From the NCBI GenBank assembly GCA_030433255.1, contig JAUIMI010000001.1, positions 311,362 through 375,361 on the forward strand: 64,000 nucleotides of DNA. The letters are read 5' to 3'. The notes under the pieces were generated by a model that saw only the letters and a list, made by a program, of their open reading frames with translations, was not told where the DNA came from and ran no database searches. The position numbers and the translations under genes are program-made. The DNA is from a bacterium (GTDB lineage: Bacteria > Patescibacteriota > Minisyncoccia > Phycocordibacterales > UBA1006). Shown here piece after piece: positions 2,479-19,217 of the stretch. How positions within the stretch are numbered: position 1 is the first letter of the stretch; every line of letters begins with the position of its first letter.

Positions 2479-2493
2479 TGTTGTGCGACGTTA
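2479..2493. repeat. left copy (attL-like) of a perfect 15-bp direct repeat TGTTGTGCGACGTTA
   Basis: The 15-mer is identical to the one at 19203..19217. It lies inside a short imperfect palindrome (TAACGTCG ... CGACGTTA) and sits 180 bp from an integrase pseudogene. Confidence 0.55.
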
Positions 2494-2675: not shown

Positions 2676-3170
2676 TTACGAAGCCTGAAGTAGAACATCC
2701 CTCAATTTTAAGGCTTCCAATAATGAAGAGTCCAAGGTTAATGTTGGTTTGTTTTGGTTCAAATTGGATACTTCAGACTGTTGCCCTCCTTTTCTAGACA
2801 TATACTTTCCTGCCAATTCCTGATGACGGTTCGCACATAAATGTGTATAAGTAAATGAAGATTCAGGTTTTACATGTCTCAGAATCACCGAGACGTCTCT
2901 CATATTACCTCCCTGTTCTAAAATGCTATTCGCCTTGCCATGCCTAAAGCTGTGCGGTGTATAATTCTTGTCGATATTGGCATCTTCACACAGTAATTTC
3001 ATCCAACGTTGTACACTTCGCTGCGTGAATGGTTTCTTCGTTTTTGGATTAATCAAAAGTTCATCATGGTCAGTATCGAACCCTAGCCGTATCCCTAAAT
3101 AAATATTGAGCAAGAGAAGAGTAAATACAGCGATAGCTTCGAATTTGAAATAATTAAAGCCTATAACGAA
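2676..3170 (-). pseudogene. tyrosine recombinase / phage-type integrase, N-terminally disrupted
   Basis: The C-terminal catalytic region contains HSFRHG (the HxxR box) and a tyrosine in FTYTHL. A box I-like LNIYLGIRLG is present. The frame begins with TTG and an in-frame stop lies about 20 codons upstream. No core-binding domain can be recovered upstream. Confidence 0.6.
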
Positions 3171-6600: not shown

Positions 6601-6742
6601 CATCGTTGTTAACGTCACCCATTATGGCTGAACGTGAATTTCCTAAATCATTAGGAATATCTTGTGAAACGAATTCGGCATAAGCGCCTTGAGCACTAAA
6701 AGCAAGCGCAAGTAATAAAATAATCTTTGTATAATACTTCAT
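3680..6742 (-). CDS. large secreted FG-GAP/VCBS beta-propeller adhesin-like protein with Ig-like repeats and two C-terminal peptidoglycan-binding domains
   Basis: A signal peptide is present. There are seven or more D-x-N-x-D-G-x-L-D-I-Y-V calcium-binding FG-GAP repeats, a HYR/Ig-like segment, three beta-sandwich repeats of about 110 aa (two identical) and two PG_binding_1-like modules at the C-terminus. Confidence 0.8.
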   Translation of the reverse strand: MKYYTKIILLLALAFSAQGAYAEFVSQDIPNDLGNSRSAIMGDVNNDGNLDIYVGARLEQNKLWIGNRDGTFTNSDILGDDQGNTTDAAMADLNGDGNLDIYVTNSFSKNKLWLGNGDGTFTNADIPADSTTSRSSSVVIGDVDNDGDLDIYVGAFSGGTNVLWINDGTGNFIDGSISGDGIADDVAMADFNNDGNLDIYASRAAYNNQNKLWLGNGDGTFVSGNITGDICTDQNNGCPGRSVVVGDIDGDNDIDLYLTSYYDDQPVNLNRFWINNNDGTFASQNIANDYGGTAQDSEIVDFDGDGDLDILIAMYFGFQNIIWENDGSGNFTQNNITGDTGESFGVTTGDVNNDGEIDVYVVNGDNGDFQNRLWLQDTTPPVITLTGSDPVTVPVNTPYSDAGAAATDNLDGDITVNIVTVNPVDTSTLGSYTITYNVADAAGNDAIEVTRIVNVVTSFTQSSNTSTASENAGTASYTIVLDAEPTSDVVIDLSSSDTNEATVSPSSLTFTPANWDTPQTVTVTGVDDDLVQTDTASITASINAAASADEYDAVADQAHIVTLTDDDAASIIIDPSGITTTGLTILENAGTGSFNVRLGSQPLTDVVIDLSSSDTGEATVSPSSLTFTTGNWNVNQTITVTAVNDDLDRDDSATLTISVNDAASDDTYDGVADATASIIITDDDMADFTQSSNTSTASENAGTASYTIVLDAEPTSDVVIDLSSSDTNEATVSPSSLTFTPANWDTPQTVTVTGVDDDLVQTDTASITASINAAASADEYDAVADQAHIVTLTDDDATTSTSKGSSRRVSKEKLAEIFGTPVSEELGKGEQCPSSQILNQNMKVGDRNGSFSSWENETITEVKILQAHMNRLGFASGKVDGILGPITDGAIKRMQAYLGTTQDGYVGPITRSLINNSCGKEVIEVESTPVVEDAKCFINYRRLIKRGMTGNDIRQAQECIASLGHSIGPFDGIYGGLTYAGIRSYQQANNLILDGIIGPETAGHLNALSGVALDGVTSLN
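4354..4682. repeat. intragenic direct repeat, copy 1 (about 329 bp, identical to 5041..5369)
   Basis: Read by eye, the nucleotide sequence is identical to copy 2, offset by 687 bp (229 codons), inside the 3680..6742 CDS. Confidence 0.85.
5041..5369. repeat. intragenic direct repeat, copy 2 (about 329 bp, identical to 4354..4682)
   Basis: Same evidence as copy 1. The domain copy between the two (about 4700..5040) is diverged. Confidence 0.85.
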
Positions 6743-6857
6743 ATCAATTTAAATATTAACCTAAGTCATTATTATTTACAATATCCTTGAACGAAAATTT
6801 GACTTGCAAAAATTGCTTATTGAAGTATAGTTGTATTAAATTTTAAACAAGTAAATT

Positions 6858-7352
6858 ATGAAACAATTATTTCTTCTAGTATTGGTATTTTTCTCTATTA
6901 CAGTGCAAGCTCAAGTTGGGCTAGGTACCAACACCCCAGACCCTAATTCTATATTGGATTTAACAAGTAACAATAAGGGATTGCTTATCCCTCGAATGCT
7001 AACTAGTGATCGTTTAGCTATTACATCACCACCAAACGGGTTAATCGTATTTGATGTTGATACCAATGGCATATGCTATTTTTCCTCTACTTTGGATTGG
7101 GTTTGCATTGATGCAGAGTCTACTAATGGATGGGTGCAATCTGTTGATGGCACAACACCAGCAAGTGATGCAACTCAATCCATTGAGCGTTCTGGTGACC
7201 TAGAAATTTCAACCACAAGTTTTCAGATTAGTATCTCTGAGTCAGGTGGGATTACACTCAAAAACACCTCAAGTAATTCAAGTATAGAAATACAAAGCGA
7301 CGGTAAGATAAAGATGACCGGAGCAAGTGGAAGTTTTGTATACATTAATTAG
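6858..7352 (+). CDS. secreted hypothetical protein
   Basis: A signal peptide (MKQLFLLVLVFFSITVQAQ) is present. A conserved N-terminal block VGLGTNTPDPNSILDL..GLLIPRM..DRLAI..P.NGLIVFDVDTN resembles a motif I recall from Bacteroidetes surface proteins, but the family identity is uncertain. Confidence 0.5.
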   Translation: MKQLFLLVLVFFSITVQAQVGLGTNTPDPNSILDLTSNNKGLLIPRMLTSDRLAITSPPNGLIVFDVDTNGICYFSSTLDWVCIDAESTNGWVQSVDGTTPASDATQSIERSGDLEISTTSFQISISESGGITLKNTSSNSSIEIQSDGKIKMTGASGSFVYIN

Positions 7353-7450
7353 TTGAAAATTGAATTTAGAAAAGCCCTTACACTCGTATAGGCTTTTTTT
7401 TAAATTACTTAAAGGACATTTAATACAAGGATTACAATATCTAAAGGACA

Positions 7451-7490
7451 TTTAAAAACAGGCTATTTTTAAGTAGCCTGTTTGTTATTT
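7451..7490. terminator. bidirectional terminator between the convergent genes 6858..7352 and 7493..8863
   Basis: The hairpin ACAGGCTA-tttttaag-TAGCCTGT is flanked by an A-run and a T-rich run. A second, weaker hairpin lies at about 7371..7402. Confidence 0.5.
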
Positions 7491-7492
7491 AG

Positions 7493-8863
7493 TTAACGTA
7501 TAATTAATTTTTTAGATATTATCTTGTTGCTTGTAAGTATACTCACATGATACATTCCAGATGATAGATTAGGTAATTGTAAGCTTGTATTATCCGCCAA
7601 TAAACTACTATCATAATAAGCCATGGTTTTACCCAATGGATTATAGATAGTCACCTCTTGTATTGTAATAGCTTCGGGTAAGATAAAATGTATCTCTGTT
7701 GTTGCAGGATTTGGATATAAACGAATACTGTCAGTGGAGTCCTCAATATCTGAAACTCCCAAAGTAGCTTCATTTATGACATACATCTCAGTGATTAATT
7801 CATTTTCATATTGACCAACACCAATGTTGCCAGAAGTTAAGAGAACATTTGAAACTATCCCTTGATAAGGCATCTTTACAATAACGGATGAACCATATGC
7901 TCTATCAGCCGGAATAAAATTAGGATCTAGCGTCAAATTTGAGCCAGTATCGATGTAAATTCCTGCACTGGGATTCGGTTGTGATTGAAAACCAGCTACA
8001 TAATAGTCAAAACTTCCATCACTATTAAAATCATGTTCAAGAATATTAGCCTGTATATGATTAGGAATTACACTCGAACTTAACTCCGTAACACCATCTG
8101 AATCCACAAAATAAATATCAGATGTGTTGTTGTTAGTTTTAAGAATATACCTTCCAAATTCATTAAACACCAAAATGGTATCTGAACCCAATAAGCCTCT
8201 TGTACCTCTCAAGACATTATACGTGCCATTGTTGTTGCTAACCATAACATAACAATTATTATTCACATCATTGTTTGGTGTTGAGTTAAGAGAACTGGTA
8301 TCATCTACTATTTTTGTAAAGAATCCATTGGAATTTTCATAAATAATAGAACGTAAACGAAAACTTGCATCACGACCACTTGTTCGTAAATCAAGATCGC
8401 CATCATTATCAACATCGAAAAAATCAGCTATAACATCGTAAAGTCCAATGAGGTTTTGGGATACATTGTACCCTCCATTCCCGTCATCCATACGAATTTC
8501 TGCAAAAGGATTTGAATTGGGCAAATTAAGATTTGGCGTACCGATAATAAGAATATCTGGACCATACAGCCCATCAAGATCAGCCTGAAGTATTTTTCCA
8601 TACCCCACATCTGGCAATGTTCCCGTCTGAGCAAACATGTCATTTGTGTCATCAAAGTCGTAAATGCGAGTCCCAAGAATAGAATTATCCTCTATTCCAT
8701 ATCCGATTAATCGATTATGTAAACCATCTCCGTTAGTGTCGATAGGTAGAAATTCTCCTTTGACAGGAACGAGATTGTGCTGAATAGTTCCATAATTTAG
8801 TTGAGCACACACATTGAAAATAGGTGCAATTGCCATCATCAAAAACAAAATAATTTTTTTCAT
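7493..8863 (-). CDS. secreted FG-GAP-like repeat protein with a T9SS (Por) C-terminal sorting domain
   Basis: A signal peptide is present. Calcium-binding D-x-D-x-D-G repeats occur (FDVDNDGDLDL). The C-terminal 75 aa (LYPNPATTEIHF ... GMYHVSILTSNKIISKKLIIR) matches the type IX secretion CTD pattern. Confidence 0.7.
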   Translation of the reverse strand: MKKIILFLMMAIAPIFNVCAQLNYGTIQHNLVPVKGEFLPIDTNGDGLHNRLIGYGIEDNSILGTRIYDFDDTNDMFAQTGTLPDVGYGKILQADLDGLYGPDILIIGTPNLNLPNSNPFAEIRMDDGNGGYNVSQNLIGLYDVIADFFDVDNDGDLDLRTSGRDASFRLRSIIYENSNGFFTKIVDDTSSLNSTPNNDVNNNCYVMVSNNNGTYNVLRGTRGLLGSDTILVFNEFGRYILKTNNNTSDIYFVDSDGVTELSSSVIPNHIQANILEHDFNSDGSFDYYVAGFQSQPNPSAGIYIDTGSNLTLDPNFIPADRAYGSSVIVKMPYQGIVSNVLLTSGNIGVGQYENELITEMYVINEATLGVSDIEDSTDSIRLYPNPATTEIHFILPEAITIQEVTIYNPLGKTMAYYDSSLLADNTSLQLPNLSSGMYHVSILTSNKIISKKLIIR

Positions 8864-9037: not shown

Positions 9038-10978
9038 ATGAAAAAGCGAGTTGGCGTGTGGATACGAGTTTCCACAAAATTACAGCAGAATTCAGATAGC
9101 CCTGAACATCATTTGCAAAAAGCAAAAATGTACGCAGAGCTAAAAGATTGGGATATTGTAGAAGAGTACCACTTAGAAGCTGTTAGCGGCAAAAGCGTGA
9201 TGGAACACCATGAAGCCCAGCGTATGATGCGAGATATTCAAAGTGGTCATATTGAAGGTTTGATCTTCTCGAAGATTGCCCGCTTTGCTCGTAACGTAAA
9301 AGAACTTTTGGAATTCTCAAAACACTTTCAAAAGTATAAGGGAGATATGATTTCCTTGAGTGAATCTATAGATACCAGTACACCTTCTGGTCGCTTTTTC
9401 TTCACCATGATTTCTGCTATGGGTCAGTGGGAACGTGAAAATATTGTTGAACGTATTAAATCATCTGTAGAAGTCAGAGCCAAAATGGGAAAAATAATGG
9501 GTGGTATTCCATTTGGGTATAAACGAGTAGGTAAAGATGATATGGCACTTGATGAACACGAAGCTCCAATTCGTAAAATGATGTTTGACTTGTTTTTGGA
9601 GCATGAACGGCATGCAACCGTAGCCAACATTCTTAACGAAAAAGGATATCGCACCAAACGAAAAAGTAAATTCACCGGTACTACGGTTAAACGACTATTA
9701 CAAGACCCAACTGCAAAAGGTATTAGACGTTCTCATTGCACTAAGATAGATGAAAATGGAAAAACCGTAATGAGGGATAAGTCGGAATGGTACATCCACG
9801 AAGCACCACGAATCGTATCAGACGAAGTATGGGACACCGTAAATGATATTATCCGTAAACAGGAAAAAGAAAAGGTACAACCATTAAATAAAAAGGTGCA
9901 TTTGTTTACAAGCTATTTATTTTGTGAATGCGGTGGCGGTATGTATGTGCCATCGTCAAACCCAAAATACACTTGTAAGAAGTGTAAACGCAAAATCCAT
10001 GTCGAAGATATTGAAGCGATCTTTAAAGAACAGCTCACCGAGTTCATCATTTCAGAAGAAGAAGTAAAACGTTACTTTAATGGCACACACACCATCATCA
10101 GAGAAAAGCAACAAGAGATTGAAAATGTGAAATCAGAAATACTAAAACTTGAAGATAAGATTGAAAAGCTATTTGAACTTCACGAAAAAGGGCAAATTGA
10201 GACTGATAGATTTAAAGATTTCTACGATAAACCAAACAACCAAGTGCAACAATTAAAACTCAGAATCCCACGAATTGAAGGCGAAATCTATGCCTTGAAA
10301 GACCAATTTAAATCAAGTGGATATATTATTGAAGAAGCTCGTTCGTTATATGAAAACTGGCATAAACTCACCAAAAGGCAAAAACGTAACATCATAGAAA
10401 TCATTACCGAAAAGATAGTGGTATCAGAGCAGGAAGTGAACATCACACTTAACTATATTCTTCCAAAGACACCATCTTTGAAAACGACTGCAAATGGTAC
10501 TCATGGACTATACTCAATGAGTACCATTTGCAGTTTTAAACTGAAACCAAAGTTACGCAAAATACCTAAAGCAAAACCCTTTACCCACTCACTTGGAGAG
10601 TACATCCGACACGAAAGGCTAAAAAAGCACATTTCACAAGAAGCATTAGCAAAACAGTTTGGTGTTAATGGAGTTGCTTTATCTATGTGGGAACTAAAAC
10701 GTAAGCCAGTACATCCAAAACGTTTTCAATCGGTGATTGATTTTCTTGATTACGTTCCTAAAAAGTCATCGAAGTTTGATAAGCTAGGAACACGCACTCA
10801 ATTATGGCGATTACAAAATGAGGTGAGCCTCCAAGAGTTTTCAGAATTGGTACATGTTCCCATAGAAGAAATTACACGAATAGAAACAGCTAGATATTGT
10901 AAAATTGACAGTAAGGTATCTGAAATCATCAACGCATTCATCAAACACTCTATTTCTTCCCACGAAGTGCTTTCATAA
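9038..10978 (+). CDS. large serine recombinase (resolvase/invertase N-terminal domain, recombinase domain and zinc ribbon) with a C-terminal HTH extension
   Basis: The N-terminal VGVWIRVSTKLQ carries the serine nucleophile context. A Cys4 zinc ribbon (CECGGG ... CKKCKRK) and coiled-coil segments follow. One or two XRE-like HTH motifs sit at the C-terminus (ISQEALAKQFGVNGVALSMWE). Confidence 0.85.
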   Translation: MKKRVGVWIRVSTKLQQNSDSPEHHLQKAKMYAELKDWDIVEEYHLEAVSGKSVMEHHEAQRMMRDIQSGHIEGLIFSKIARFARNVKELLEFSKHFQKYKGDMISLSESIDTSTPSGRFFFTMISAMGQWERENIVERIKSSVEVRAKMGKIMGGIPFGYKRVGKDDMALDEHEAPIRKMMFDLFLEHERHATVANILNEKGYRTKRKSKFTGTTVKRLLQDPTAKGIRRSHCTKIDENGKTVMRDKSEWYIHEAPRIVSDEVWDTVNDIIRKQEKEKVQPLNKKVHLFTSYLFCECGGGMYVPSSNPKYTCKKCKRKIHVEDIEAIFKEQLTEFIISEEEVKRYFNGTHTIIREKQQEIENVKSEILKLEDKIEKLFELHEKGQIETDRFKDFYDKPNNQVQQLKLRIPRIEGEIYALKDQFKSSGYIIEEARSLYENWHKLTKRQKRNIIEIITEKIVVSEQEVNITLNYILPKTPSLKTTANGTHGLYSMSTICSFKLKPKLRKIPKAKPFTHSLGEYIRHERLKKHISQEALAKQFGVNGVALSMWELKRKPVHPKRFQSVIDFLDYVPKKSSKFDKLGTRTQLWRLQNEVSLQEFSELVHVPIEEITRIETARYCKIDSKVSEIINAFIKHSISSHEVLS

Positions 10979-13900
10979 TAATATTAGTTATCGAAGCCTG
11001 CTTATTGGTGTCATTGTCTGTTTTGTAATCCACGTTTACACGGTAGCCACGTACACGCTTTACTTTGGTTTTTGGTTGAATTAAGGCATCAAGATACAGC
11101 AGTAATTCTTCAGATTTGAAGAAGTGGATTTTTAAGTGTTGTTTTTTAGAAATATTCTTTAAGGCTTGTTCCTTGATATTCTTAAGATGCTTTTCGTCCT
11201 CTGAAATCATATATACCAAAGAGTAGTTATCATCCAAGCACTTTTGAATATTTTGTACTTCATAATCTACTCTATTAGTTACTGAAATTTCAATGGCAAT
11301 ACGAATATCATCTTTTAACAGCGATACATCAACTTTGCCACCATTTAATGTTGAATCTTCAAGTGTTGCCTTAAACCCTCGCTGGAGAGCCATAGAACGA
11401 ATGTAATTTTGAATTGAACGATGCTGACGGACAATCTCCTGTTCTTCGGCTTGTTGTAAGTATTTTTCTTTACGAGCTTCTAAATCATCAGTCTTTTCTA
11501 AATTTTCAGTTTTTGGAGATGGTTTTGTTTCAGTAATGGGCTTTTCAACTTCACTTTTCTTATCTTCAACAATTACGGGTTCAACAGATTTTTCAATTTT
11601 GGGTTCTGTTGTTTTAGTTTTGAGTTTAGTCTTTTGGGGTGTTTGCTTAGGAAGCAAGGAAGCTAACAACTCATCAAGTTCTGCTTTAGATTTGCTGTAG
11701 CTTTTTCTTGTATGAGCAACAATACTATCTCTATTTACTTCGGCATTAGTTTCAGCTATAGACAATGGAAAGGTTGAAATATTAAAATCATCACTTGAAG
11801 AACCTACGCGCATAATGGCTTGTCCGATACCGAGACTCTGTAAATCATCTTGCTCAAAATATGAAAAACCAGACTCCAATCGTTTCGCATCGCTATCGCC
11901 TAGACGAAAACAAATCCGTGTTTTTGGATTTGATAAAACAGAGTTCAACAATTTTGCATCTTCAATTTGAGCCAATTCTTGATGAGCAATGGTAATACCT
12001 AAACCATATTTTCTAGCACCACTTAATATACGTTCAATACTTGGTGTGATGAAATTTTGGAACTCATCTAGGTATAACATAAAAGGTTTACGGCTATCCT
12101 TACCTTTAGATTGCCTTGCCAATGCCGATTGATTAAATTTTGCCAAGAACAATGAGCCTAATAAATAGGAATTCTGTTCTCCAATAAGGCCTTGCGATAA
12201 TTTCAGTAAAACAATTTTGTTGGTATTAAGGCAATTTGCTACATCAACACCTTTGTTTTGAGCTAACATATAGCGCACCAATTTTGGACGTAAAAATGTA
12301 TCTATACGAGTAAGTAGTGGTGCAATACCTTTTCGTACCAAAGGATATTCATTATTCCAATAGTAATGTAACGAAGGGTCGTTGACCGTTTTTAAGTATT
12401 GAACTCTATAAGGTTCTTCAAGTAGAAAACGCTTTAATTCAATAAGCGTTCCACCTTGAGTGCTCTCTAACATGGTATTTACAGCGTTTTGCAATACCGC
12501 AGTCATATTATCTCCCCAAGCAGTGGCATGACGTTTAAATGCCGAAACTAAATCTGATGAGAGTACAATTTTTTCAGCATCGGTATGCGCTTCTAATAGA
12601 TTGAATCCAATAGGGAAGTCAGCATCGGAAGGGTCTATTAAAACTACATCATTAATCCTGTTTTCTGGAATACGCTCTAAAATATCATCAATGATGTCGC
12701 CATGTGGATCGAACATAGCACAACCCATTCCATTTTCAATATCGGCAAGCATCATATTTGCCAGTAGAGTACTTTTACCAACGCCTGTGGCTCCTATTAC
12801 GTGTGTATGGGACAAACGTGTTTCATAGCTTAATTGAACAGGAATATCTTCTTGATTATGGGTATTGACTCCAATTAGGATGCCTTGATTGTCCTTTTGG
12901 TGTATACGTTTGGTTTTACCAACTTGCCATTGTAGTTTTTTAGAAACCACCGTTTTATTGGGATAGTGCAAAAAGGTATTCAGTTCCTTGGAATTCAATA
13001 CAAAGCCCAATCGGTTACTGAGGCGATGATGTAGATTGTATTTATGGAAATCATAATCATACCCTTCATTGGATAAAGGGATGAGTTTGTTATGCTGAGA
13101 GGTTGAAACTGCCGAAATACTTCGTGCTAACTCTTGTGCCAGATACTGACTCCTGTAATTGTCCTTGCCTTGAGTAGCTATACGCATCACCACTGAAAAT
13201 AGTGGATGTGCTATTTTTTCTTTGGCACACTGTGGCATTTCAGGAGCATCCGAAAAAAAAGAACCGCCAGCACCATCATTTACCGAATACATTGTATCCT
13301 TTGCTAAAGGAGAACTAATACCTTTAAACAGAATTTGAAAAACAGCAACATCATCATCCTGCAAAGCTTCCATAGTTGCGATGACTGAAGTTAATGGGTC
13401 TATGTTAAAAGAATCAGACGTAACTATGCTTCGCATATATTCACTATTAAGCCCAAAGTCTGCAATAGCGATATCATTTTTGTTTGAAAATCCAAAATCA
13501 TCAACTTCAATAGTTTTAATTATAACCATTGGAAAGTATGCCGATAATTGCGATTTCAATCTGCCTCTATCCTGTTTACTACATACCATTTGAATTTGGA
13601 TAGTATCTGAATTACCAATAATTTCAAAGGACAGTAAATGTTCTGTAAAGGATAGTAGATTGAGAAGTTCGATATTCCTGCTTGGATTGATTTCAGTCCC
13701 ATACGGAAAGGAAATTGAGAGACCAACAAGTTGAGGCTTTTCTGAAACTTCAAGAAAACGAGGTTTAACCTCTATTAAATCTTCTTCTGGTTCTTCTTCT
13801 TTAGGAGGAGCAAGTAATTTGGTTACTTGTTTGAATAATGAAGGTGCTCTACCATCATCTTGTATTGAAGGTCGGTTTTGGCTTACATGCTGAAAGGGAA

Positions 13901-14009
13901 CATAGGGAACCTCAATATCAATAGGAGTATCGAAATTGTAATACCCACGAAATCGATACTCCCAATTATAGAAATTAAGGGTTGCTTGTTCACTTCTTGT
14001 TAAACCCAT
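10950..14009 (-). CDS. FtsK/HerA/TrwB-superfamily P-loop ATPase (DUF87 or type IV coupling-protein-like) with an unknown 400-aa N-terminal domain, a K/E/P-rich linker and a C-terminal possible nuclease-like domain
   Basis: Walker A GATGVGKST is present, then FDPHGD, Walker B LYLDEFQNF and an AHQ motif. No TM helices are evident. The C-terminal roughly 120 aa show a D...E-I-S pattern weakly reminiscent of PD-(D/E)xK folds. Confidence 0.65.
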   Translation of the reverse strand: MGLTRSEQATLNFYNWEYRFRGYYNFDTPIDIEVPYVPFQHVSQNRPSIQDDGRAPSLFKQVTKLLAPPKEEEPEEDLIEVKPRFLEVSEKPQLVGLSISFPYGTEINPSRNIELLNLLSFTEHLLSFEIIGNSDTIQIQMVCSKQDRGRLKSQLSAYFPMVIIKTIEVDDFGFSNKNDIAIADFGLNSEYMRSIVTSDSFNIDPLTSVIATMEALQDDDVAVFQILFKGISSPLAKDTMYSVNDGAGGSFFSDAPEMPQCAKEKIAHPLFSVVMRIATQGKDNYRSQYLAQELARSISAVSTSQHNKLIPLSNEGYDYDFHKYNLHHRLSNRLGFVLNSKELNTFLHYPNKTVVSKKLQWQVGKTKRIHQKDNQGILIGVNTHNQEDIPVQLSYETRLSHTHVIGATGVGKSTLLANMMLADIENGMGCAMFDPHGDIIDDILERIPENRINDVVLIDPSDADFPIGFNLLEAHTDAEKIVLSSDLVSAFKRHATAWGDNMTAVLQNAVNTMLESTQGGTLIELKRFLLEEPYRVQYLKTVNDPSLHYYWNNEYPLVRKGIAPLLTRIDTFLRPKLVRYMLAQNKGVDVANCLNTNKIVLLKLSQGLIGEQNSYLLGSLFLAKFNQSALARQSKGKDSRKPFMLYLDEFQNFITPSIERILSGARKYGLGITIAHQELAQIEDAKLLNSVLSNPKTRICFRLGDSDAKRLESGFSYFEQDDLQSLGIGQAIMRVGSSSDDFNISTFPLSIAETNAEVNRDSIVAHTRKSYSKSKAELDELLASLLPKQTPQKTKLKTKTTEPKIEKSVEPVIVEDKKSEVEKPITETKPSPKTENLEKTDDLEARKEKYLQQAEEQEIVRQHRSIQNYIRSMALQRGFKATLEDSTLNGGKVDVSLLKDDIRIAIEISVTNRVDYEVQNIQKCLDDNYSLVYMISEDEKHLKNIKEQALKNISKKQHLKIHFFKSEELLLYLDALIQPKTKVKRVRGYRVNVDYKTDNDTNKQASITNIIMKALRGKK

Positions 14010-14014
14010 GTCAT

Positions 14015-14599
14015 CTATCTGATAAATACATCATTTAACATAGGCTTACGCTCTGCCTCACTGATAGAGCGGATTCCTTTATCGTTGGTAATGTCATCAA
14101 TGACTTTTAACACCGAAGATTGAGCGTAGCTCATAAACATACTGGCAGTATCTATCCTGTAATAGGTTACTGGATACAATTTTCTTGCAAGCCAACCACC
14201 TATAAATGGAATTTTAGCAACCAATATCTTGCCAATGGAATCTTTATACAATAACCACCAAGACACGAAAAAGCCATGACCAAACTTGGCTCCACAAATA
14301 TCATATTGGTAATCTTTCCATATAGCTCGTAAATAGATGCGAGAATGAGACATCGCTCCTCCTTCTTTAATGAATTTTTCTTTGATATTGATTTTTGTAA
14401 TGCCGTGAGATTCCAGTTCGGTTTTTAATAAGGCATAAAACTCTTTAGGTGAGTATTCAAAGTTATCAATAAGGGTACTCCACCGTGAGTGATAGTTTTT
14501 TCTGGTTTTACTGAAAATAAATCTTAAAACTAGAAAAGCAACAATTCCAGCTAGGACATACATCCCATATTTTGTTAGATAAAAAGTGAATTCATTCAT
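14015..14599 (-). CDS. hypothetical membrane-anchored protein
   Basis: It has a single N-terminal TM helix. It lies 5 bp upstream of the ATPase gene and 26 bp downstream of the AlaX-like gene on the same strand. Confidence 0.45.
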   Translation of the reverse strand: MNEFTFYLTKYGMYVLAGIVAFLVLRFIFSKTRKNYHSRWSTLIDNFEYSPKEFYALLKTELESHGITKINIKEKFIKEGGAMSHSRIYLRAIWKDYQYDICGAKFGHGFFVSWWLLYKDSIGKILVAKIPFIGGWLARKLYPVTYYRIDTASMFMSYAQSSVLKVIDDITNDKGIRSISEAERKPMLNDVFIR

Positions 14600-14625: not shown

Positions 14626-15534
14626 TTATATTAATTGTGTCTTTATTGATAAGGTTTTTTCCTCTTCATTATAGAAGCAGTCTACAGTAACTTTAGGTAA
14701 TTGGGACAAAGAGCTAACATGAGTTCCTCCACAAGGGATAGTAACAAATCTATCATTTATTTTTACTTTAAAATTTCGTTTAGCCCCTAATTGAATATTA
14801 TCTCCGAACATACTTACTTTAGAAGATTTATTGATATCTATAAGTTTGTTTAAACTACTCGACAACTCAATAGAAAACTTTTTAAAATCTAAGCTTTTGA
14901 ATTTAACTAAGTCAAACCCTTTCTTTGATAAACTTTTACCAATACGATATACATCAGTAGCATAATAAGTGTAGATTTTTGATTTCTGTATTGCTAAGGC
15001 ATCAAAATTTGGATTATTAAGATCATCTTTAAAATCCACCTCTTTTTTCCAAAATGAAGCTAGTTCTTCATTAAGAATTATTGACATCAAATGAACGGTA
15101 GTGTGTGTTTTAGAGAGATTTTCTCTAAATTTTTCGTCTACATATAACTCGCAATCTAAATCAATTAATGAGTTTTCATTTAATGAGTTTAAATCGTCAA
15201 TAATAAAATGCCCTATCATGGCAATATATATACCTTCTTGAAGCCCTTTATAAAAAGCACTTTTACTTTTGGGAAATACATTCTTTCTAGTATTTATGTC
15301 TATAATTATAATACGAGAGTCTTCAACCTTATATGTTTTTCCTTGAATGACTATTTTTCCTTTATCTCCTGGTTGATCTCCACCTAGATAATCTTCAGGG
15401 TGAAATGGACTCATGTCTGTACAAACATATAGACCCTCAGGAAAAGAAAAGACACCTTTTATTTTAGCTTTAGAATAGGTTGAATTTTCATAATATAATG
15501 CTTGGCTAGTTGTTGTTCTATTTGAGATTTTCAT
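14626..15534 (-). CDS. AlaX-M-type alanyl-tRNA synthetase-like trans-editing domain protein
   Basis: The N-domain signature is ALYYENS ... FSFPEGLYVCTDMSPFHPEDYLGGDQPGDKG, of the LYY ... FYP.GGGQP.D.G type. The editing-site zinc motifs HTTVHLM (HxxxH) and CGGTHV (CxxxH) are separated by about 115 aa, as in AlaRS/AlaX editing domains. Confidence 0.7.
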   Translation of the reverse strand: MKISNRTTTSQALYYENSTYSKAKIKGVFSFPEGLYVCTDMSPFHPEDYLGGDQPGDKGKIVIQGKTYKVEDSRIIIIDINTRKNVFPKSKSAFYKGLQEGIYIAMIGHFIIDDLNSLNENSLIDLDCELYVDEKFRENLSKTHTTVHLMSIILNEELASFWKKEVDFKDDLNNPNFDALAIQKSKIYTYYATDVYRIGKSLSKKGFDLVKFKSLDFKKFSIELSSSLNKLIDINKSSKVSMFGDNIQLGAKRNFKVKINDRFVTIPCGGTHVSSLSQLPKVTVDCFYNEEEKTLSIKTQLI

Positions 15535-16553
15535 AAGTTAATTATATAAGGATTAGTACTTTTTACAAACTGCATCTTCACTTTTGACCTAAGAGTCACT
15601 ATTCTTTGAAGCCAACGATCGTGTCCATCAAATTTTGCGGGGAACAATGATCTACCATGGACTGCTTTATCATTATCTATAATTAATAAATCGCCTGGTT
15701 TAAGAGCTATCTTTATAGCGCTTTCATGTATAAGTAATTTTAATTCTTTAAATGCTGTTTCTGCTTTTTTTGTTAAGAACTTGGTAGTATATAATGGATC
15801 ATACCTCAAGGTAAGTGTCTTTTTAAATTCTAATATTGACACCTTAACTTCTTTTTGAACACCATGGGCTTCGTCTGAAGAAATAATAAAATTGGGCATT
15901 AGTAATTGTTCAATTGTTTGTGGTTTTAACTTATAAAAGTCTATTTTAGAAATTAACGTATAAGCTTCTGGTGTTCCTCTTAAACATAATAATAGTATAT
16001 GATTGCACCTAAGGTTGTGAAATGCATCTTCTGTATGCCAATCTAAATAGACTCTCCCCGTTCCTAATTGTTTATTTTGGTCTTTTATTTTGGGAAAAAG
16101 ATTTTGTATTACAAGTCCTTTTCTTTGCGAAAAATAGCCATAAGGATATCCTATTAAATTAGCTATAGCAATAAGAATGATTTCACTGTAAGATGTCATT
16201 TTTAAATCTAAATTTCCAGTTGGCCCAAGATGTTGGTCTAGCAATAAATTTTCAATTAAAAAAGCACCTATAGTATTAGATTTATTTGCAAACTCAACAA
16301 TAGAATCTTCTAATTCATTAGGAAGCACATCTGAAACATCATCACTCGCCCTAGAAATATTGAAGTAATTTTTTTGATTAAACTTTTTTTCCGCTTTGAT
16401 GGAAACTTTATTTTTTATGAACTTATTTTCATCAGATGACAGTCTATAAAAAGATTCAAATTTTGTTAGCTGAATTTTTTCATGAATTTTTCTTAAGTCT
16501 TTCACTATATCTCTTTTTTTAGTAAAATTAGATTTATAACTATTTGTAACCAA
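15531..16553 (-). CDS. Fe(II)/2-oxoglutarate-dependent oxygenase of the TauD/TfdA/clavaminate-synthase-like family (putative amino-acid hydroxylase)
   Basis: WHTEDAFH (an HxE/D facial-triad motif) is followed by LLLCLR. The C-terminal GDLLIIDNDKAVHGRS ... RWLQR supplies the second His and an Arg, as in TauD/CAS-like enzymes. A 4-bp ATGA overlap links it to the downstream AlaX-like gene. Confidence 0.6.
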   Translation of the reverse strand: MVTNSYKSNFTKKRDIVKDLRKIHEKIQLTKFESFYRLSSDENKFIKNKVSIKAEKKFNQKNYFNISRASDDVSDVLPNELEDSIVEFANKSNTIGAFLIENLLLDQHLGPTGNLDLKMTSYSEIILIAIANLIGYPYGYFSQRKGLVIQNLFPKIKDQNKQLGTGRVYLDWHTEDAFHNLRCNHILLLCLRGTPEAYTLISKIDFYKLKPQTIEQLLMPNFIISSDEAHGVQKEVKVSILEFKKTLTLRYDPLYTTKFLTKKAETAFKELKLLIHESAIKIALKPGDLLIIDNDKAVHGRSLFPAKFDGHDRWLQRIVTLRSKVKMQFVKSTNPYIINL

Positions 16554-16630: not shown

Positions 16631-17320
16631 ATGATGAACATCAGATTATTAATATTCGTAATCTTTCTTGCTCTTGGAATTGGATGCCATGCGGGCTCTT
16701 ATGCCTTCAATAATGAAAAACTTTTAGAACTATTATCGCAGGCTGAAAAACTGGAACAGAACAAGGAGTATTCAACCGCATTGAATGTATATAATGAGGC
16801 TCTGAAAATTGCATCCAAAGAAGAGCGTATTGAAGACGCCAGTTACATTTACAATAAAATAGGATTAGTCTATTACAGACAAAAGCAATACGAAACAGCA
16901 AAATCCAATTTTAAGACCAGCATCCTAAAATCCAATATTTCTAATAGTGCTGCAGATTCTTATTTCAATCTCTCGCTGATTTACAGAAAACAAAACTCAA
17001 AGGATAGCCTTCTATGGTCATTGAATAGGTCTTTGGAAATTTATGGTGGTTTGGAAGATAGCAACAGTAAATTTTCAACCTATTCCAAAGCTGGAATTCT
17101 CTATAAACAGCTGGGTATGTATGACAAAGCCATTGAATATTTGCTTTTGGCTTATGACGGATTAGATAATAAAGAAAATGAGTCCCAAAAAACTTCGGTT
17201 TGCTACACCATTGGTGAGACGCAACGCCTTTTGGGAAATTTAGACATTGCTAAAACTTATCTAAAAGAAAGCCTTCAGATTAGAAATAGACTTAATGATT
17301 CTCTTAAAACGTCTTCATAG
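16631..17320 (+). CDS. TPR-repeat lipoprotein
   Basis: A lipobox (LALGIGC) is present. Several 34-aa TPR-like repeats with an A/Y/L pattern follow. Confidence 0.6.
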   Translation: MMNIRLLIFVIFLALGIGCHAGSYAFNNEKLLELLSQAEKLEQNKEYSTALNVYNEALKIASKEERIEDASYIYNKIGLVYYRQKQYETAKSNFKTSILKSNISNSAADSYFNLSLIYRKQNSKDSLLWSLNRSLEIYGGLEDSNSKFSTYSKAGILYKQLGMYDKAIEYLLLAYDGLDNKENESQKTSVCYTIGETQRLLGNLDIAKTYLKESLQIRNRLNDSLKTSS

Positions 17321-17622
17321 TTAGCAGTGTTTTCGGCTATGGCTAATGCTTGACCACTATGAACTATATCATTATCCTTTACGAGAAGATTGCTAATTTC
17401 ACCACTCATTCTTGCATATTCCTTTTGAGGTGGAATTGTAGTAGTTATTATTACCTGTGACTGAATAATATCAGGATACTTAATATACCATGTTGCTAAA
17501 AACAATAAAAATATAACTACAAAAATTACCGTTATCCCCCATTTTAAAAAAACATTTGGTTGCTTTTCTAAAATTTCTCTAATTTGCTCACTGTGATTAT
17601 CGATTTCGTCAATTTTCATCAT
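17275..17622 (-). pseudogene. N-terminal fragment of an HlyD-family bacteriocin or peptide secretion accessory protein
   Basis: A TM helix is followed by IIQSQVIITTT-PPQKEYARMSGEISNLLVKDNDIVHSGQALA, typical of the first 110 aa of LcnD/ComB-type HlyD proteins. The ORF ends after 115 aa and overlaps the convergent TPR gene. Confidence 0.5.
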
Positions 17623-17876
17623 TAACTTCCTAATTCTAATTGATCTTTAACTAACTTATAATAGACTCCTTTATTATTTACTAACTTTTGATGATCACCT
17701 TCCTCAATTATTTCTCCTTTTTCTAAACAGCTCCCTAAATAATCTTTAATCTTAGCCCATGTACCATCACACCCATGACAATCAGACCAGTCACCTCCTT
17801 GAACTTTTTCAAGTACATCACTAGTGTTTACGTTTTCTGCTTTTGCTTTAAAAGCTTCAAGACTTAATCTCTTCAT
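17622..17876 (-). CDS. double-glycine-leader peptide-like ORF fused in frame to the C-terminal tail of a bacteriocin-type ABC exporter (remnant)
   Basis: The N-terminus MKRLSLEAFKAKAENVNTSDVLEKVQGG resembles a GG-type leader. The Cys-rich DWSDCHGCDGTWAKIKDYLGSC follows. The last 34 aa (LEKGEIIEEGDHQKLVNNKGVYYKLVKDQLELGS) match the conserved C-terminus of C39-peptidase ABC exporters. Confidence 0.45.
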   Translation of the reverse strand: MKRLSLEAFKAKAENVNTSDVLEKVQGGDWSDCHGCDGTWAKIKDYLGSCLEKGEIIEEGDHQKLVNNKGVYYKLVKDQLELGS

Positions 17877-18044: not shown

Positions 18045-18350
18045 ATGTTATGTTTTATCTTGCAATTGCTATTAATCATGTTTCCTATGAACTCATTACC
18101 CTTTGAGATTCTCTTTGAAGTTCTCGGCAATCGTATTCGTGATCTTCGACAATCAAAAAAGCTTTCACAAATTGAAGTAGCAGCAAGATGTGGACTGGAC
18201 GTTTCTAACTATAATAAAATTGAATTTAACAAAAGGCCACCATCACTACGTACGCTATTTAAAATTGCCATTGCTCTAGATGAACCTATCTCTAATTTCT
18301 TTAATGATGAAGTGTTTCTCTCATTTATCGAAGAACATGTGAAAGCTTAA
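18045..18350 (+). CDS. XRE-family helix-turn-helix transcriptional regulator
   Basis: HTH_3 signature LSQIEVAARCGLDVSNYNKIE is present. The likely true start is an internal Met at about 18087 (MNSLPFEIL). Confidence 0.7.
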   Translation: MLCFILQLLLIMFPMNSLPFEILFEVLGNRIRDLRQSKKLSQIEVAARCGLDVSNYNKIEFNKRPPSLRTLFKIAIALDEPISNFFNDEVFLSFIEEHVKA

Positions 18351-18572: not shown

Positions 18573-18899
18573 CTATAACCAGCTATCTCTTTGTAATTGC
18601 TTTCGTTCTTGTTCCTGTTTTATTTGTTCTATTCGGATATGGTCTGGAATGCGTTCATTTGCGTTGTACTTTGGTAAAGAAATTTCTTTTGTAGAACGCA
18701 TTTTTTGCGTTTCGAATTGTGAATGAGATATCCAGTCCCGTCGCTTAACCTTTCCAAACTCATCTCGCCATCCCAAAAGATTCCTCACAATCTTAAGATA
18801 CACACGCACCGCAGATCCACTCATACTTCCAATATGCTTATCAAAAAAAGCATTAGGCACTGGAGTCGTATTATTCAGTCGCATGAGCTTCAAAATCAA
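18573..18899 (-). CDS. truncated phage/plasmid replisome-organiser-like protein (N-terminal winged-helix domain only)
   Basis: VPNAFFDKHIGSMSGSAVRVYLKIVRNLLGW resembles Phage_rep_org_N/DnaD-like N-domains. It is only 108 aa. A 12-bp stem hairpin (AAAGAGATAGCT ... AGCTATCTCTTT) overlaps its 3' end. Confidence 0.35.
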   Translation of the reverse strand: MILKLMRLNNTTPVPNAFFDKHIGSMSGSAVRVYLKIVRNLLGWRDEFGKVKRRDWISHSQFETQKMRSTKEISLPKYNANERIPDHIRIEQIKQEQERKQLQRDSWL

Positions 18900-19197
18900 T
18901 TACTGGTAAATTATCATTATGATTTGGAAAGATCATAAAATTAGTATCTGGTTGATGATACAACTGTAAAAACCAACCGCCGTTGTTGGTTACTTTTACA
19001 ACACCTACTTTATGATAAATATGTTTGTCGTTATCAACCTTATTAACAGTTTTACGAGTAACAACGTTATAAAATTTAGTCATACTAAAATTCAATTTTA
19101 TGTACGTTTTAACCTTAGGGAAAACCCAATACAAATCAAAATCGAAAATATTTTGTTTCAATAGAAAGTCGCAAAACCCTTGACTTTTGTCGGACAA
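18871..19197 (-). CDS. hypothetical protein
   Basis: The ORF shows no similarity I can recognise. It is adjacent to the right-hand repeat. Confidence 0.3.
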   Translation of the reverse strand: MSDKSQGFCDFLLKQNIFDFDLYWVFPKVKTYIKLNFSMTKFYNVVTRKTVNKVDNDKHIYHKVGVVKVTNNGGWFLQLYHQPDTNFMIFPNHNDNLPVIDFEAHATE

Positions 19198-19202
19198 GTA
19201 GT

Positions 19203-19217
19203 GTTGTGCGACGTTAT
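19203..19217. repeat. right copy (attR-like) of the 15-bp direct repeat TGTTGTGCGACGTTA
   Basis: The 15-mer is identical to the one at 2479..2493. Confidence 0.55.

What the first reader, a model, noticed from the sequence alone, without database searches (positions are those of the whole stretch)
10950..14009. Large soluble FtsK/HerA/TrwB-like ATPase with an unknown 400-aa N-domain, a K/E/P-rich linker and a C-terminal nuclease-like module
Walker A GATGVGKST is present. The motif FDPHGD is HerA- and coupling-protein-like. The Walker B LYLDEFQNF, with DEF, is typical of VirD4/TrwB. Downstream lies ITIAHQ. Unlike VirD4/TraG there is no N-terminal membrane anchor. The last roughly 120 aa (GGKVDVSLLKDD ... 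IAIEISVT) follow a low-complexity linker and weakly resemble a PD-(D/E)xK-type fold. With the serine recombinase it could form a minimal dsDNA translocation module, as TraB does in actinomycete integrative elements. Alternatively it could be the effector ATPase of a defence system.
Basis: partly seen in the sequence, partly recalled or inferred. Interest (0 to 1): 0.6.

Follow-up and report, generated by a model that had tools for sequence, protein, structure and literature searches.

The report
Membrane-tethered DNA motor–nuclease of mobile islands
The gene encodes a large, widespread but unstudied protein that joins a conjugation-type DNA-pumping ATPase to a restriction-enzyme-like nuclease domain, is always paired with a small membrane protein, and sits next to the integration site of mobile "weapon islands" in Bacteroidota, so it most likely processes or moves island DNA, although a defence role is not excluded.

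Summary
ORF 10950-14009 (-) encodes a 1019-aa soluble P-loop protein carrying every quoted motif. It belongs to a large family of about 1000-aa proteins.

The pair lies beside the large serine recombinase and its attP in two different gene orders. In the window a 48-bp palindrome inside the recombinase-HTH ORF looks like an intact attP.

Distant homologues in Bacillus plasmids and phages form the set membrane protein + ATPase + separate PD-(D/E)xK relaxase (Replic_Relax/MobC).

Best reading (about 0.4): a fused version of that module, nicking and pumping island DNA at the inner membrane for transfer. Main rival (about 0.3): a cargo defence effector, because a sister island lacks the pair.

Rated a new variant of a known kind, of moderate interest.

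The parts
14015..14599 (-). Gene for a 194-aa partner protein with one N-terminal transmembrane helix (aa about 10-32). It ends 5 nt before the ATPase start codon.
   Evidence: ORF. 58% identical to the Tenacibaculum counterpart. Present immediately upstream (median gap -5 bp, same strand) in 56 of 57 full-length loci. Hydropathy analysis shows mostly one or two overlapping N-terminal hydrophobic segments per member. No Pfam, NCBIfam, PADLOC or PHROG hit.
10950..14009 (-). 1019-aa soluble protein: conserved N-terminal peptide, VirB4-NTD-like domain, T4SS-type ATPase, K/E/P linker and PD-(D/E)xK-like domain.
13839..14009 (-). aa 1-57: highly conserved N-terminal peptide (T10 F13 Y14 W16 R21 G22 ... 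D51 G53), followed by a variable acidic linker (aa about 58-85).
   Evidence: Invariant columns in A1 and A3. Helix plus strand in the model, then a low-confidence linker.
12840..13754 (-). aa about 86-390: alpha/beta N-domain (DUF8128 in relatives) with a VirB4/TrwK N-terminal-domain-like fold.
11730..12839 (-). aa about 391-760: P-loop ATPase domain with Walker A GATGVGKST, FDPHGD, Walker B LYLDEFQNF and ITIAHQ.
   Evidence: Pfam TrwB_AAD_bind 6e-11, TraG-D_C 1.3e-6, DUF87 1.9e-5. NCBIfam partial hits to TraD, VirB4 and CedD, all far below their cut-offs. PDB profile hits to HerA, DotL, TrwB and DptH. The motif residues are invariant in 44 homologues.
11460..11657 (-). aa about 785-850: low-complexity K/E/P/T-rich linker.
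   Evidence: Sequence. Not conserved in A1.
10953..11459 (-). aa 851-1019: PD-(D/E)xK (restriction-endonuclease-like) domain with invariant H863, E884, D894, E907, E917, N920, K923 and C924, plus a conserved beta-hairpin (G988, R990) and a lysine-rich tail.
9038..10978 (+). 646-aa large serine recombinase (core aa 1-487) fused in frame to an XRE-type HTH module (aa about 494-646). It is convergent with the ATPase gene, and the 3' ends overlap by 29 bp.
   Evidence: Pfam Resolvase, Recombinase and HTH_3. 44% identical to the 503-aa recombinase that follows the ATPase in Tenacibaculum. The HTH part is a separate convergent gene in 14 other loci. Similar 638-652-aa fusions exist in the database.
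10487..10534 (.). 48-bp near-perfect palindrome (24-nt arms, 92% complementary, no spacer) at the recombinase-core/HTH junction. Interpreted as an intact attP-like site of the serine recombinase.
   Evidence: I3. The 18-nt half-site occurs only here in the window, once on each strand, against 0.05 expected. The right arm equals the conserved 5' end of the stand-alone HTH gene, with the breakpoint just before TATACTCAATG. A left-arm-like sequence sits at the recombinase 3' end in L041. The integrated layout 'comM-C | HTH ... ATPase ... rec | comM-N' is verified in an Odoribacter contig.
2479..2493 (+). Left copy of a 15-bp exact direct repeat, TGTTGTGCGACGTTA: candidate att site bounding the 16.7-kb island.
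   Evidence: 2 matches; no shuffle gave 2. It lies between the host engB and a truncated tyrosine integrase.
19202..19216 (+). Right copy of the 15-bp direct repeat, next to the host rplI (19436-19879).
2676..3113 (-). C-terminal fragment (145 aa) of a tyrosine integrase, homologous to the integrase found upstream of the module in L006 and L014.
   Evidence: Pfam Phage_integrase 3.7e-11, profile positions 85-169 only. DNA similarity to L006 and L014.
18045..18350 (+). XRE-family HTH gene, an island backbone gene shared with 4 other loci.
   Evidence: NCBIfam RstR-like. Cluster C22.
18573..19197 (-). Two 108-aa ORFs corresponding to backbone genes C26 and (frameshifted) C14, a Rep_O-like winged-helix protein. 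88-90% DNA identity to the region just upstream of the 194-aa gene in L006 and L014.

Best explanation
The 194-aa membrane protein and the 1019-aa protein form a two-gene DNA-handling machine carried by integrative islands of Bacteroidota.

Shown:
- The large protein combines a VirB4-like N-domain, a T4SS coupling-type ATPase and a PD-(D/E)xK nuclease-fold domain.
- It has no membrane segment of its own.
- It is always encoded just after a single-pass membrane protein.
- It lies beside the island's serine recombinase and attP.

Inferred:
- The membrane protein tethers a ring of the ATPase to the inner membrane, through the N-domain, as VirB3 does for VirB4.
- The C-terminal nuclease cuts or nicks the excised circular island. 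It would be the fused counterpart of the separate Replic_Relax/MobC-type PD-(D/E)xK relaxase that follows the homologous ATPase in Bacillus plasmids and phages.
- The motor feeds that DNA to an export route.
- Because these are diderm cells and no mating-pore genes accompany the module, export would depend on the T4SS of a co-resident conjugative element. The module would then be a self-supplied coupling protein plus relaxase of a mobilisable island.
For: The partner gene is present in 56 of 57 loci at a median gap of -5 bp, with a conserved N-terminal TM helix.

Distant homologues share the N-domain plus ATPase, not only the P-loop: 24% identity over aa 121-707. They sit at the coupling-protein position in a B. 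subtilis plasmid conjugation operon, directly before a Replic_Relax gene and TcpE/VirB4-like genes. They also occur in Sulfolobus conjugative plasmids. In Bacillus phage 0305phi8-36, orf201 is followed by orf200, a MobC/Replic_Relax relaxase homologue, and was published as a predicted 'DNA translocation operon' with membrane anchors. In phage TP-84 the homologue is preceded by a small membrane protein with a weak VirB2/TrbC pilin match.

Replic_Relax is a PD-(D/E)xK family, so the flavobacterial C-domain occupies the place of that gene as a fusion.

The module is adjacent to recombinase/attP in two different gene orders: ATPase->rec in 33-36 loci, and rec-attP-HTH<-ATPase in the window and L005.

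The islands carry genes typical of conjugatively transferred DNA: ArdC, RadC, an orphan D12 methylase, SSB remnants, and a second small coupling-type ATPase.

The PADLOC mad8 hit is generic to the clade.
Against: No relaxase-family sequence signal was found in the C-domain: hhalign against orf200 gave probability 0.2%, and no Replic_Relax hit appeared in hmmscan.

No oriT was identified. The only strong palindrome is better explained as attP, and no conserved non-coding motif was found upstream of the module.

No T4SS genes are seen near the module in any Bacteroidota locus inspected.

The pair is dispensable for the element family. Three outgroup comM islands and a sister Lutibacter island with the same recombinase (71% aa identity) and backbone lack it. 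This is the pattern expected of cargo.

Many islands already have another small coupling-type ATPase.

The canonical Lys of (D/E)xK is replaced by Ser/Ala/Gly.

The phage 'translocation operon' itself is only an informatic prediction with no laboratory phenotype.
Confidence: 0.4

Rival explanations
1. A two-gene anti-phage or anti-plasmid defence (conflict) system carried as cargo. The membrane protein would place a hexameric DNA-translocating ATPase at the site of DNA entry. The motor would load on invading DNA, and the fused nuclease would degrade it, in the manner of HerA-nuclease defence pairs.
For: The islands are packed with defence and toxin genes: GAPS4b, OLD/AAA_15, type I RM, SIR2, Shedu, TIR, caspase, RHS and CBASS. 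The pair is optional between closely related islands and occupies a variable slot next to the recombinase. Outgroup islands of the same recombinase family carry other defence genes in that position. ATPases of this clade have been recruited to defence systems, as the mad8, DndH/DptH and SspH matches show. ATPase-plus-nuclease is a common defence architecture (general knowledge).
Against: No PADLOC model covers the pair beyond the generic ATPase hit, which equally matches a conjugation-operon protein. The whole three-part arrangement (membrane protein, N-domain plus ATPase, PD-(D/E)xK) is shared with conjugative plasmids. No self/non-self component such as a methylase is consistently linked. 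The family is well conserved (55-76% identity across genera) rather than rapidly diversifying. No member was found in IMG/VR viral contigs; this is neutral.
Confidence: 0.3
2. One reading: an autonomous, T4SS-independent double-stranded DNA transfer machine that moves the excised island between cells using only the membrane protein, the motor and the recombinase.
For: The set is small and self-contained and lies next to recombinase/attP. No mating-pore genes are nearby. Single-motor DNA transfer has precedents in Streptomyces TraB and Thermus TdtA (general knowledge).
Against: Bacteroidota have an outer membrane, and nothing in the module could span it. FtsK_SpoIIIE scores below the Pfam cut-off (19.3 vs 24 bits). 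No TraB-type winged-helix DNA-recognition domain and no clt-like repeat array were found. The recombinase family works without the pair.
Confidence: 0.08
3. An intracellular maintenance or control factor of the island. The motor-nuclease would act on the excised circle or on the att sites, for example controlling direction of serine-recombinase recombination, resolving multimers, or initiating replication by nicking. This would be loosely analogous to FtsK activating XerCD or to XisH/XisI assisting XisF.
Against: The XisH match is no better than matches to many other PD-(D/E)xK proteins. A membrane tether is hard to explain for a purely intracellular recombination factor. Related recombinases function in islands without it.
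Confidence: 0.1

Closest known systems
Type IV coupling proteins (TrwB/TraD/VirD4/DotL)
   Same: The nucleotide-binding domain matches at sequence level: Pfam TrwB_AAD_bind and TraG-D_C above their cut-offs, and PDB profile hits to TrwB and DotL. Walker A and B and the DEF box are present. It is associated with mobile DNA.
   Different: It has no N-terminal transmembrane domain; a separate membrane protein is encoded instead. It carries an extra 390-aa VirB4-like N-domain and a C-terminal nuclease-fold domain. It is not next to a canonical relaxase or T4SS genes. It scores far below the NCBIfam family cut-offs (45.7 vs 366 bits).
VirB4/TrwK with its small membrane partner VirB3
   Different: No sequence-level VirB4 membership (TIGR00929 35.7 vs 643 bits). 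The 194-aa protein has no detectable similarity to VirB3. No other mating-pore genes are present. The nuclease fusion is unknown in VirB4.
Firmicute plasmid/phage 'DNA translocation operon': DUF87 ATPase (phrog_5156), Replic_Relax/MobC-type relaxase and membrane proteins (Pathria et al. 2012, PMC3357382; B. subtilis plasmid NZ_CP032854)
   Same: The N-domain plus ATPase are homologous (phrog_5156 2e-67; 24% identity over about 590 aa). A small membrane protein lies upstream. A PD-(D/E)xK-superfamily protein lies immediately downstream, in the position the C-domain occupies here. Proximity to recombination genes was noted for temperate phages.
   Different: Here the nuclease-fold module is fused to the ATPase and lacks the HTH of Replic_Relax. 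No sequence similarity to Replic_Relax was detectable. The host is a diderm phylum, and T4SS genes are absent from the island.
CloDF13 MobB (own coupling protein) plus MobC (restriction-endonuclease-like MOB_C relaxase)
   Same: A mobilisable element that supplies both its own coupling-type ATPase and a PD-(D/E)xK-type relaxase. This rests on general knowledge and on its citation in PMC3357382.
   Different: These are separate proteins on a plasmid. Homology to the present C-domain was not demonstrated.
HerA-nuclease defence pairs and the T4CP-like ATPases of MADS (mad8), Dnd (DptH) and Ssp (SspH)
   Same: They have an ATPase of the same superfamily, combine a ring ATPase with a nuclease, and reside in defence islands.
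   Different: Only the P-loop core matches. The mad8 model matches conjugation proteins equally well. None of the partner genes of those systems is present.
Streptomyces TraB of actinomycete integrative elements
   Same: A single DNA motor on an integrative element, conceptually a minimal transfer function.
   Different: TraB is an FtsK-type protein with a winged-helix clt-recognition domain and works in monoderm mycelia. Here FtsK_SpoIIIE is below the cut-off, no such domain was found, and the host is diderm.

Membership tests
Type IV coupling protein (VirD4/TraD/TrwB) | Nucleotide-binding domain of the TrwB type with Walker A and B | tested here: met
   Pfam TrwB_AAD_bind 42.3 bits (cut-off 20.5) and TraG-D_C 28.8 bits (cut-off 22). 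The motifs are invariant in 44 homologues.
Type IV coupling protein (VirD4/TraD/TrwB) | N-terminal transmembrane domain in the same polypeptide | tested here: not met
   No hydrophobic segment in the window protein, and none in 55 of 58 family members.
Type IV coupling protein (VirD4/TraD/TrwB) | Genetic linkage to a relaxase and mating-pore (T4SS) genes | tested here: not met
   None were found among called genes or recurrent gene clusters within about 10 kb in the Bacteroidota loci. The exception is an unrelated TraG/DUF5712 pair beyond the recombinase in L003.
Type IV coupling protein (VirD4/TraD/TrwB) | Score above curated family thresholds (NCBIfam TraD models) | tested here: not met
   TIGR03743 45.7 vs 366 bits; TIGR03754 34.4 vs 647 bits.
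VirB4 ATPase | VirB4-type N-terminal domain preceding the ATPase domain | tested here: met
VirB4 ATPase | Sequence membership (TIGR00929) | tested here: not met
   35.7 vs 643.1 bits, covering only aa 622-716.
VirB4 ATPase | VirB3-like small membrane partner encoded upstream | tested here: inconclusive
   A single-pass 194-aa membrane protein lies upstream in 56 of 57 loci. It has no similarity to any Pfam or NCBIfam family.
PD-(D/E)xK nuclease superfamily | alpha-beta-beta-beta-alpha-beta core fold | tested here: met
PD-(D/E)xK nuclease superfamily | Catalytic D ... (D/E)xK signature | tested here: inconclusive
   D894 on strand 2 and E907 on strand 3 are invariant. The +2 position is S/A/G instead of K. 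An invariant K923 sits on the next helix. Active-site geometry and activity were not tested.
MOB_C / Replic_Relax relaxases | Sequence or profile similarity to Replic_Relax (PF13814) or MobC | tested here: not met
   hhalign of the A2 profile against phage orf200 gave probability 0.2%. No Replic_Relax hit among 31 members at E<=10.
MOB_C / Replic_Relax relaxases | N-terminal HTH plus a cognate oriT nicked by the protein | tested here: not met
   Pfam detects no HTH in the large protein. No oriT candidate was found other than the attP-like palindrome. Nicking cannot be tested with these tools.
MADS defence system (mad1-8) | mad8-type ATPase together with the other mad genes | tested here: not met
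   mad8 matches at 6.9e-21, but no other mad component appears in 9 neighbours. The mad8 model also hits conjugation and phage homologues.
HerA-type helicase with nuclease partner | HerA-specific domains beyond the P-loop | tested here: not met
   The PADLOC HerA and PDB HerA matches cover only about 55-80 residues around Walker A.
FtsK/SpoIIIE/TraB translocases | FtsK_SpoIIIE domain above threshold, and a winged-helix DNA-recognition domain | tested here: not met
   19.3 bits vs the 24-bit cut-off, covering aa 381-422 only.

The most novel reading that the evidence does not exclude
The membrane protein and the motor-nuclease together form a self-sufficient, T4SS-independent device that moves double-stranded island DNA across the inner membrane of a diderm bacterium. 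The DNA could go, for example, into the periplasm or vesicles, or to a competent neighbour. The device would be coupled to a serine recombinase whose C-terminus is rewritten by excision (rec-HTH fusion across attP). This would be a new minimal route of horizontal transfer for the defence islands of marine Bacteroidota.
Probability: 0.08. Interest if true: 0.85.

Novelty: new variant of a known kind. Interest (0 to 1): 0.55.

Why it matters
How the many 'defence islands' that lack conjugation genes move between bacteria is an open question. This family is large: hundreds of 50%-identity clusters are full-length. It is conserved across Bacteroidota and has never been studied.

It combines three activities in one module: membrane tether, T4SS-type motor and nuclease. 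Elsewhere these are split between a coupling protein, a relaxase and anchor proteins. The module sits at the attachment-site end of islands that carry GAPS4, CBASS, RM, TIR, caspase and RHS cargo.

If it is a mobilisation device, it explains how these islands spread and gives a marker for finding them. If it is a defence system, it is a new one derived from conjugation machinery. Either outcome can be tested directly with a two-gene construct.

Tried and rejected
- A word-index search with the C-terminal 176 aa alone returned only 7 close fragments and no other architectures.
- tblastn of the C-domain against plasmids found nothing.
- An IMG/VR scan with the family alignment found no relative.
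- hhalign of the C-domain profile against phage orf200 (Replic_Relax) was negative. hmmscan of all 31 C-domain sequences at E<=10 gave only noise, with weak Mrr_cat in 3 members. The PDB profile search was also negative.
- The AFDB50 fold library was unavailable. The BFVD search gave only generic endonuclease-like hits.
- The N-domain profile had no sequence-level PDB hit.
- The oriT search found a single strong palindrome, reinterpreted as attP. A k-mer search of 350 bp upstream of the 194-aa gene in 55 loci found no conserved non-coding motif. The recurrent motif downstream of the ATPase is simply the recombinase start region.
- The other half of the putative attB (TACTGTTGSCAACANSGTG) is absent from the window.
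- MADS membership was rejected.
- The idea that the recombinase and ATPase are an obligate pair was rejected after sampling recombinase homologues from other phyla and a sister island.
- The look-up of P0104 failed.
- No paper mentions DUF8128.
Full report
OBSERVATION

The minus-strand ORF 10950-14009 is real and encodes 1019 aa. It contains the quoted Walker A (GATGVGKST), FDPHGD, Walker B (LYLDEFQNF) and ITIAHQ strings. It also has a K/E/P-rich linker (aa about 786-850) and the C-terminal GGKVDVSLLKDD...IAIEISVT segment. Hydropathy analysis finds no membrane segment.

The reading frame is not a chance ORF. 970 proteins match at E<=1e-5, and the best 120 are about 1000 aa long and 55-76% identical over the full length. 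An exhaustive search of a 50%-clustered library returns more than 150 further full-length representatives at 35-50% identity, and 4420 matches below 1e-30. In a 44-sequence alignment the motif residues and many others in all three regions are invariant.

WHAT THE PROTEIN IS MADE OF

1. ATPase core (aa about 391-760).
   - Pfam TrwB_AAD_bind (42.3 bits), TraG-D_C (28.8 bits) and DUF87 (25.3 bits) pass their cut-offs. FtsK_SpoIIIE does not.
   - NCBIfam gives partial hits to TraD, VirB4, a CD1115-type VirD4 and archaeal CedD, all far below the family thresholds.
   - A family profile finds HerA, DotL, TrwB and DptH in the PDB, only around the P-loop or Walker B.
   - The core is therefore a T4SS-type (VirD4/VirB4 clade) member of the FtsK/HerA superfamily. 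It is not a member of any curated equivalog.

2. N-domain (aa 1-390).
   - Relatives carry Pfam PF26449/DUF8128. No paper mentions it.
   - There is no sequence-level signal.
   - The first 57 residues are a separate, very conserved peptide followed by a variable acidic linker.

3. C-domain (aa 846-1019).
   - The model (pLDDT 85.6) has the alpha-beta-beta-beta-alpha-beta topology.
   - D894 (strand 2) and E907 (strand 3) are invariant. The usual lysine two residues later is S/A/G, but K923 on the next helix is invariant, together with H863, E884, E917 and N920.
   - No sequence family is detectable.
Catalytic competence is plausible but untested.

A 194-aa ORF (14015-14599) ends 5 nt before the ATPase start. 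It is 58% identical to its Tenacibaculum counterpart. In 63 loci fetched from one-genome-per-species contigs I called and clustered ORFs.
- The 194-aa family lies directly upstream on the same strand in 56 of 57 full-length loci (median gap -5 bp).
- Nearly every member has one N-terminal transmembrane helix.
- The ATPase thus has its anchor in trans, an arrangement that recalls VirB3-VirB4.

The loci come from Flavobacteriaceae, Saprospiraceae, Cytophagaceae, Crocinitomicaceae, Prolixibacteraceae and Bacteroidales. A few MAGs are labelled as Patescibacteria.

A large serine recombinase of about 503 aa follows the ATPase on the same strand in 33-36 loci, at a median gap of 65 bp. In 14 loci a convergent XRE-type HTH gene of about 153 aa follows instead.

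In the window and in L005 the recombinase is convergent. It is 44% identical to the co-directional type, and it is fused in frame to that HTH module.

Exactly at the fusion point lies a 48-bp palindrome, 10487-10534, with 24-nt arms that are 92% complementary. Its half-site is unique in the window.
- The right arm, together with TATACTCAATG, is the conserved 5' end of the stand-alone HTH gene in L006, L017, L046 and L051. Similarity stops just upstream of it.
- A sequence like the left arm ends the recombinase gene in L041.

In an Odoribacter contig both ends of an island could be placed: comM C-terminal half | HTH -> ... <- ATPase ... recombinase -> | comM N-terminal half, about 31.4 kb in all. 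Circularising that island would join the recombinase to the HTH. The window's palindrome is therefore best read as an intact attP. The window's rec-HTH ORF is then the junction form, and it recurs as 638-652-aa proteins in the database.

In the excised form, with either gene order, the ATPase module lies next to recombinase/attP.

The window's island itself appears to be held in the chromosome by another route. An exact 15-bp direct repeat (2479-2493 and 19202-19216; no shuffle gave two hits) brackets 16.7 kb between the host genes engB and rplI. Just inside it lie a truncated tyrosine integrase and remnants of backbone genes.

IS THE RECOMBINASE-ATPASE LINK OBLIGATE? NO.

The recombinase family is broad. 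In three homologues from Planctomycetota, a deltaproteobacterium and Chitinophagales, the recombinase abuts a split comM and carries CBASS, BrxR or other cargo. It has no large ATPase; one locus has a small coupling-type ATPase.

A Lutibacter island has the same comM target, a 71%-identical recombinase and the same ATPase(C4)-RadC-methylase block as L014. It lacks the 194-aa/ATPase pair and has three small genes in that slot.

The pair is therefore an accessory module of a family of comM- or HTH-targeting serine-recombinase islands. Their cargo is dominated by conflict genes: GAPS4b, OLD/AAA_15, type I RM, SIR2, Shedu, TIR, caspase and RHS. Their backbone includes ArdC, RadC, an orphan D12 methylase, a Rep_O-like protein, XRE regulators, tyrosine integrases and a second coupling-type ATPase of about 390 aa.

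RELATIVES ELSEWHERE

PHROG phrog_5156 (unknown function) matches aa 263-782 at 2e-67. tblastn finds distant homologues covering the N-domain plus ATPase in several places:
- Bacillus and Geobacillus phages
- Bacillus plasmids
- haloarchaeal plasmids
- the Sulfolobus conjugative plasmids

In a 24.7-kb B. subtilis plasmid the homologue is 886 aa, has no TM and no nuclease, and is 24% identical over aa 121-707. It opens a conjugation operon and is followed directly by a Replic_Relax protein, then by TcpE- and VirB4-like genes.

In phage 0305phi8-36 the homologue orf201 is followed by orf200, a Replic_Relax/MobC-like protein. Pathria et al. (PMC3357382) predicted these, with membrane anchors, to be a 'DNA translocation operon'. 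They found its deletion harmless in the laboratory and noted recombination genes next to the homologous operons of temperate phages.

In phage TP-84 the homologue is preceded by a small membrane protein with a weak VirB2/TrbC match.

Replic_Relax belongs to the PD-(D/E)xK superfamily (PMC3424549). The flavobacterial protein therefore looks like the same three-part set, with the nuclease-fold component fused to the motor. Direct homology between the C-domain and Replic_Relax could not be shown.

HOW IT MOST LIKELY WORKS

Shown:
- the domain composition
- the trans-encoded membrane partner
- the position beside recombinase/attP
- residence in mobile islands
- homology of the N-domain plus ATPase to proteins of conjugation operons

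Inferred:
- The membrane protein tethers an ATPase ring through the VirB4-like N-domain.
- The C-domain nicks or cuts the excised island.
- The motor delivers the DNA to an export route supplied by a helper T4SS.

I give this 0.4. The main rival (0.3) is a cargo defence effector. Its support is the optional presence of the pair, the defence-rich neighbourhood, and precedents of this ATPase clade in MADS, Dnd and Ssp. However, the PADLOC mad8 hit (6.9e-21) is equally strong for the Bacillus conjugation protein and for the small island ATPases, so it carries no functional weight. A TraB-like autonomous transfer (0.08) and an intracellular recombination or replication role (0.1) are less likely. 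The remainder is unknown.

COMPARISON AND NOVELTY

The protein works like, and is related to, T4SS ATPases, but it fails the membership tests of T4CP (no TMD, no relaxase or T4SS linkage, sub-threshold scores), VirB4 (fold only), HerA, FtsK/TraB and MADS. The closest described thing is the informatically predicted phage/plasmid translocation operon.

I found no description of three features: the fused architecture, the obligatory membrane partner, and the att-proximal position in Bacteroidota weapon islands. I rate it a new variant of a known kind, with interest 0.55.

Noticed in passing
window 2479-2493 and 19202-19216: An exact 15-bp direct repeat, TGTTGTGCGACGTTA, brackets about 16.7 kb between the host genes engB and rplI. 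Inside one end is a truncated tyrosine integrase (2676-3113). These are candidate att sites of a composite island that also carries the serine recombinase with an unrecombined attP.
   Followed up: partly
window 10487-10534, inside ORF 9038-10978: The attP-like palindrome is read through in frame, so the recombinase gains an XRE HTH domain only when the two island ends are joined. In integrated islands the recombinase and the HTH are separate genes at opposite ends. This could be a built-in switch between integrated and excised states. Fusion proteins of 638-652 aa recur in the database (P0360, P0362, P0363, P0368).
   Followed up: partly
L002, L013, L014, L021, L027, L070-L072, L074, L075: This serine-recombinase family inserts into comM in Bacteroidota, Planctomycetota, a deltaproteobacterium and Chitinophagales. 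The recombinase ORF runs across the junction into comM antisense sequence. The cargo includes CBASS, BrxR, GAPS4b and RM.
   Followed up: partly
window 17275-17876: Remnants of a bacteriocin-type exporter: the last 84 aa of an ABC transporter followed by the first 115 aa of a HlyD-type adaptor. Both are truncated. Together with the frameshifted Rep_O-like gene (18573-19197) and the truncated integrase, this suggests the island is decaying.
   Followed up: no
window 14626-16553: An overlapping gene pair directly upstream of the module: an AlaX-like (alanyl-tRNA editing domain) protein and a VioC/GntD-like Fe(II)/2-oxoglutarate arginine-type hydroxylase. The pair is shared with L050. It is possible small-molecule or toxin-related cargo.
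   Followed up: no
L006 5723-6895, L047, L049, L053, L056, L057, L070, L075 and others: A second coupling-type ATPase of about 390 aa (19 loci) usually sits beside RadC and often ArdC or an orphan D12 methylase. This block looks like the leading region of conjugative DNA. It may be the islands' real mobilisation function.
   Followed up: partly
config-A loci, about 20-35 nt upstream of the recombinase ATG (e.g. L001 13004-13067): A conserved element, roughly TTAG-N4-6-TAAAAC(A/C)nTG, lies between the ATPase stop and the recombinase start across divergent subfamilies. It is a possible promoter or operator for the recombinase.
   Followed up: no
L047 (Candidatus Nomurabacteria MAG, 704-kb contig) and L005 (Paceibacterota MAG): Full-length family members with Bacteroidota-like neighbours occur in contigs labelled as Patescibacteria. 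This is either mis-binning or cross-phylum transfer.
   Followed up: no
window 3680-8863: Inside the putative island lie a 1020-aa FG-GAP/Ig-like/peptidoglycan-binding protein and a 456-aa protein with a T9SS C-terminal sorting domain. These would be secreted cargo of the island.
   Followed up: no
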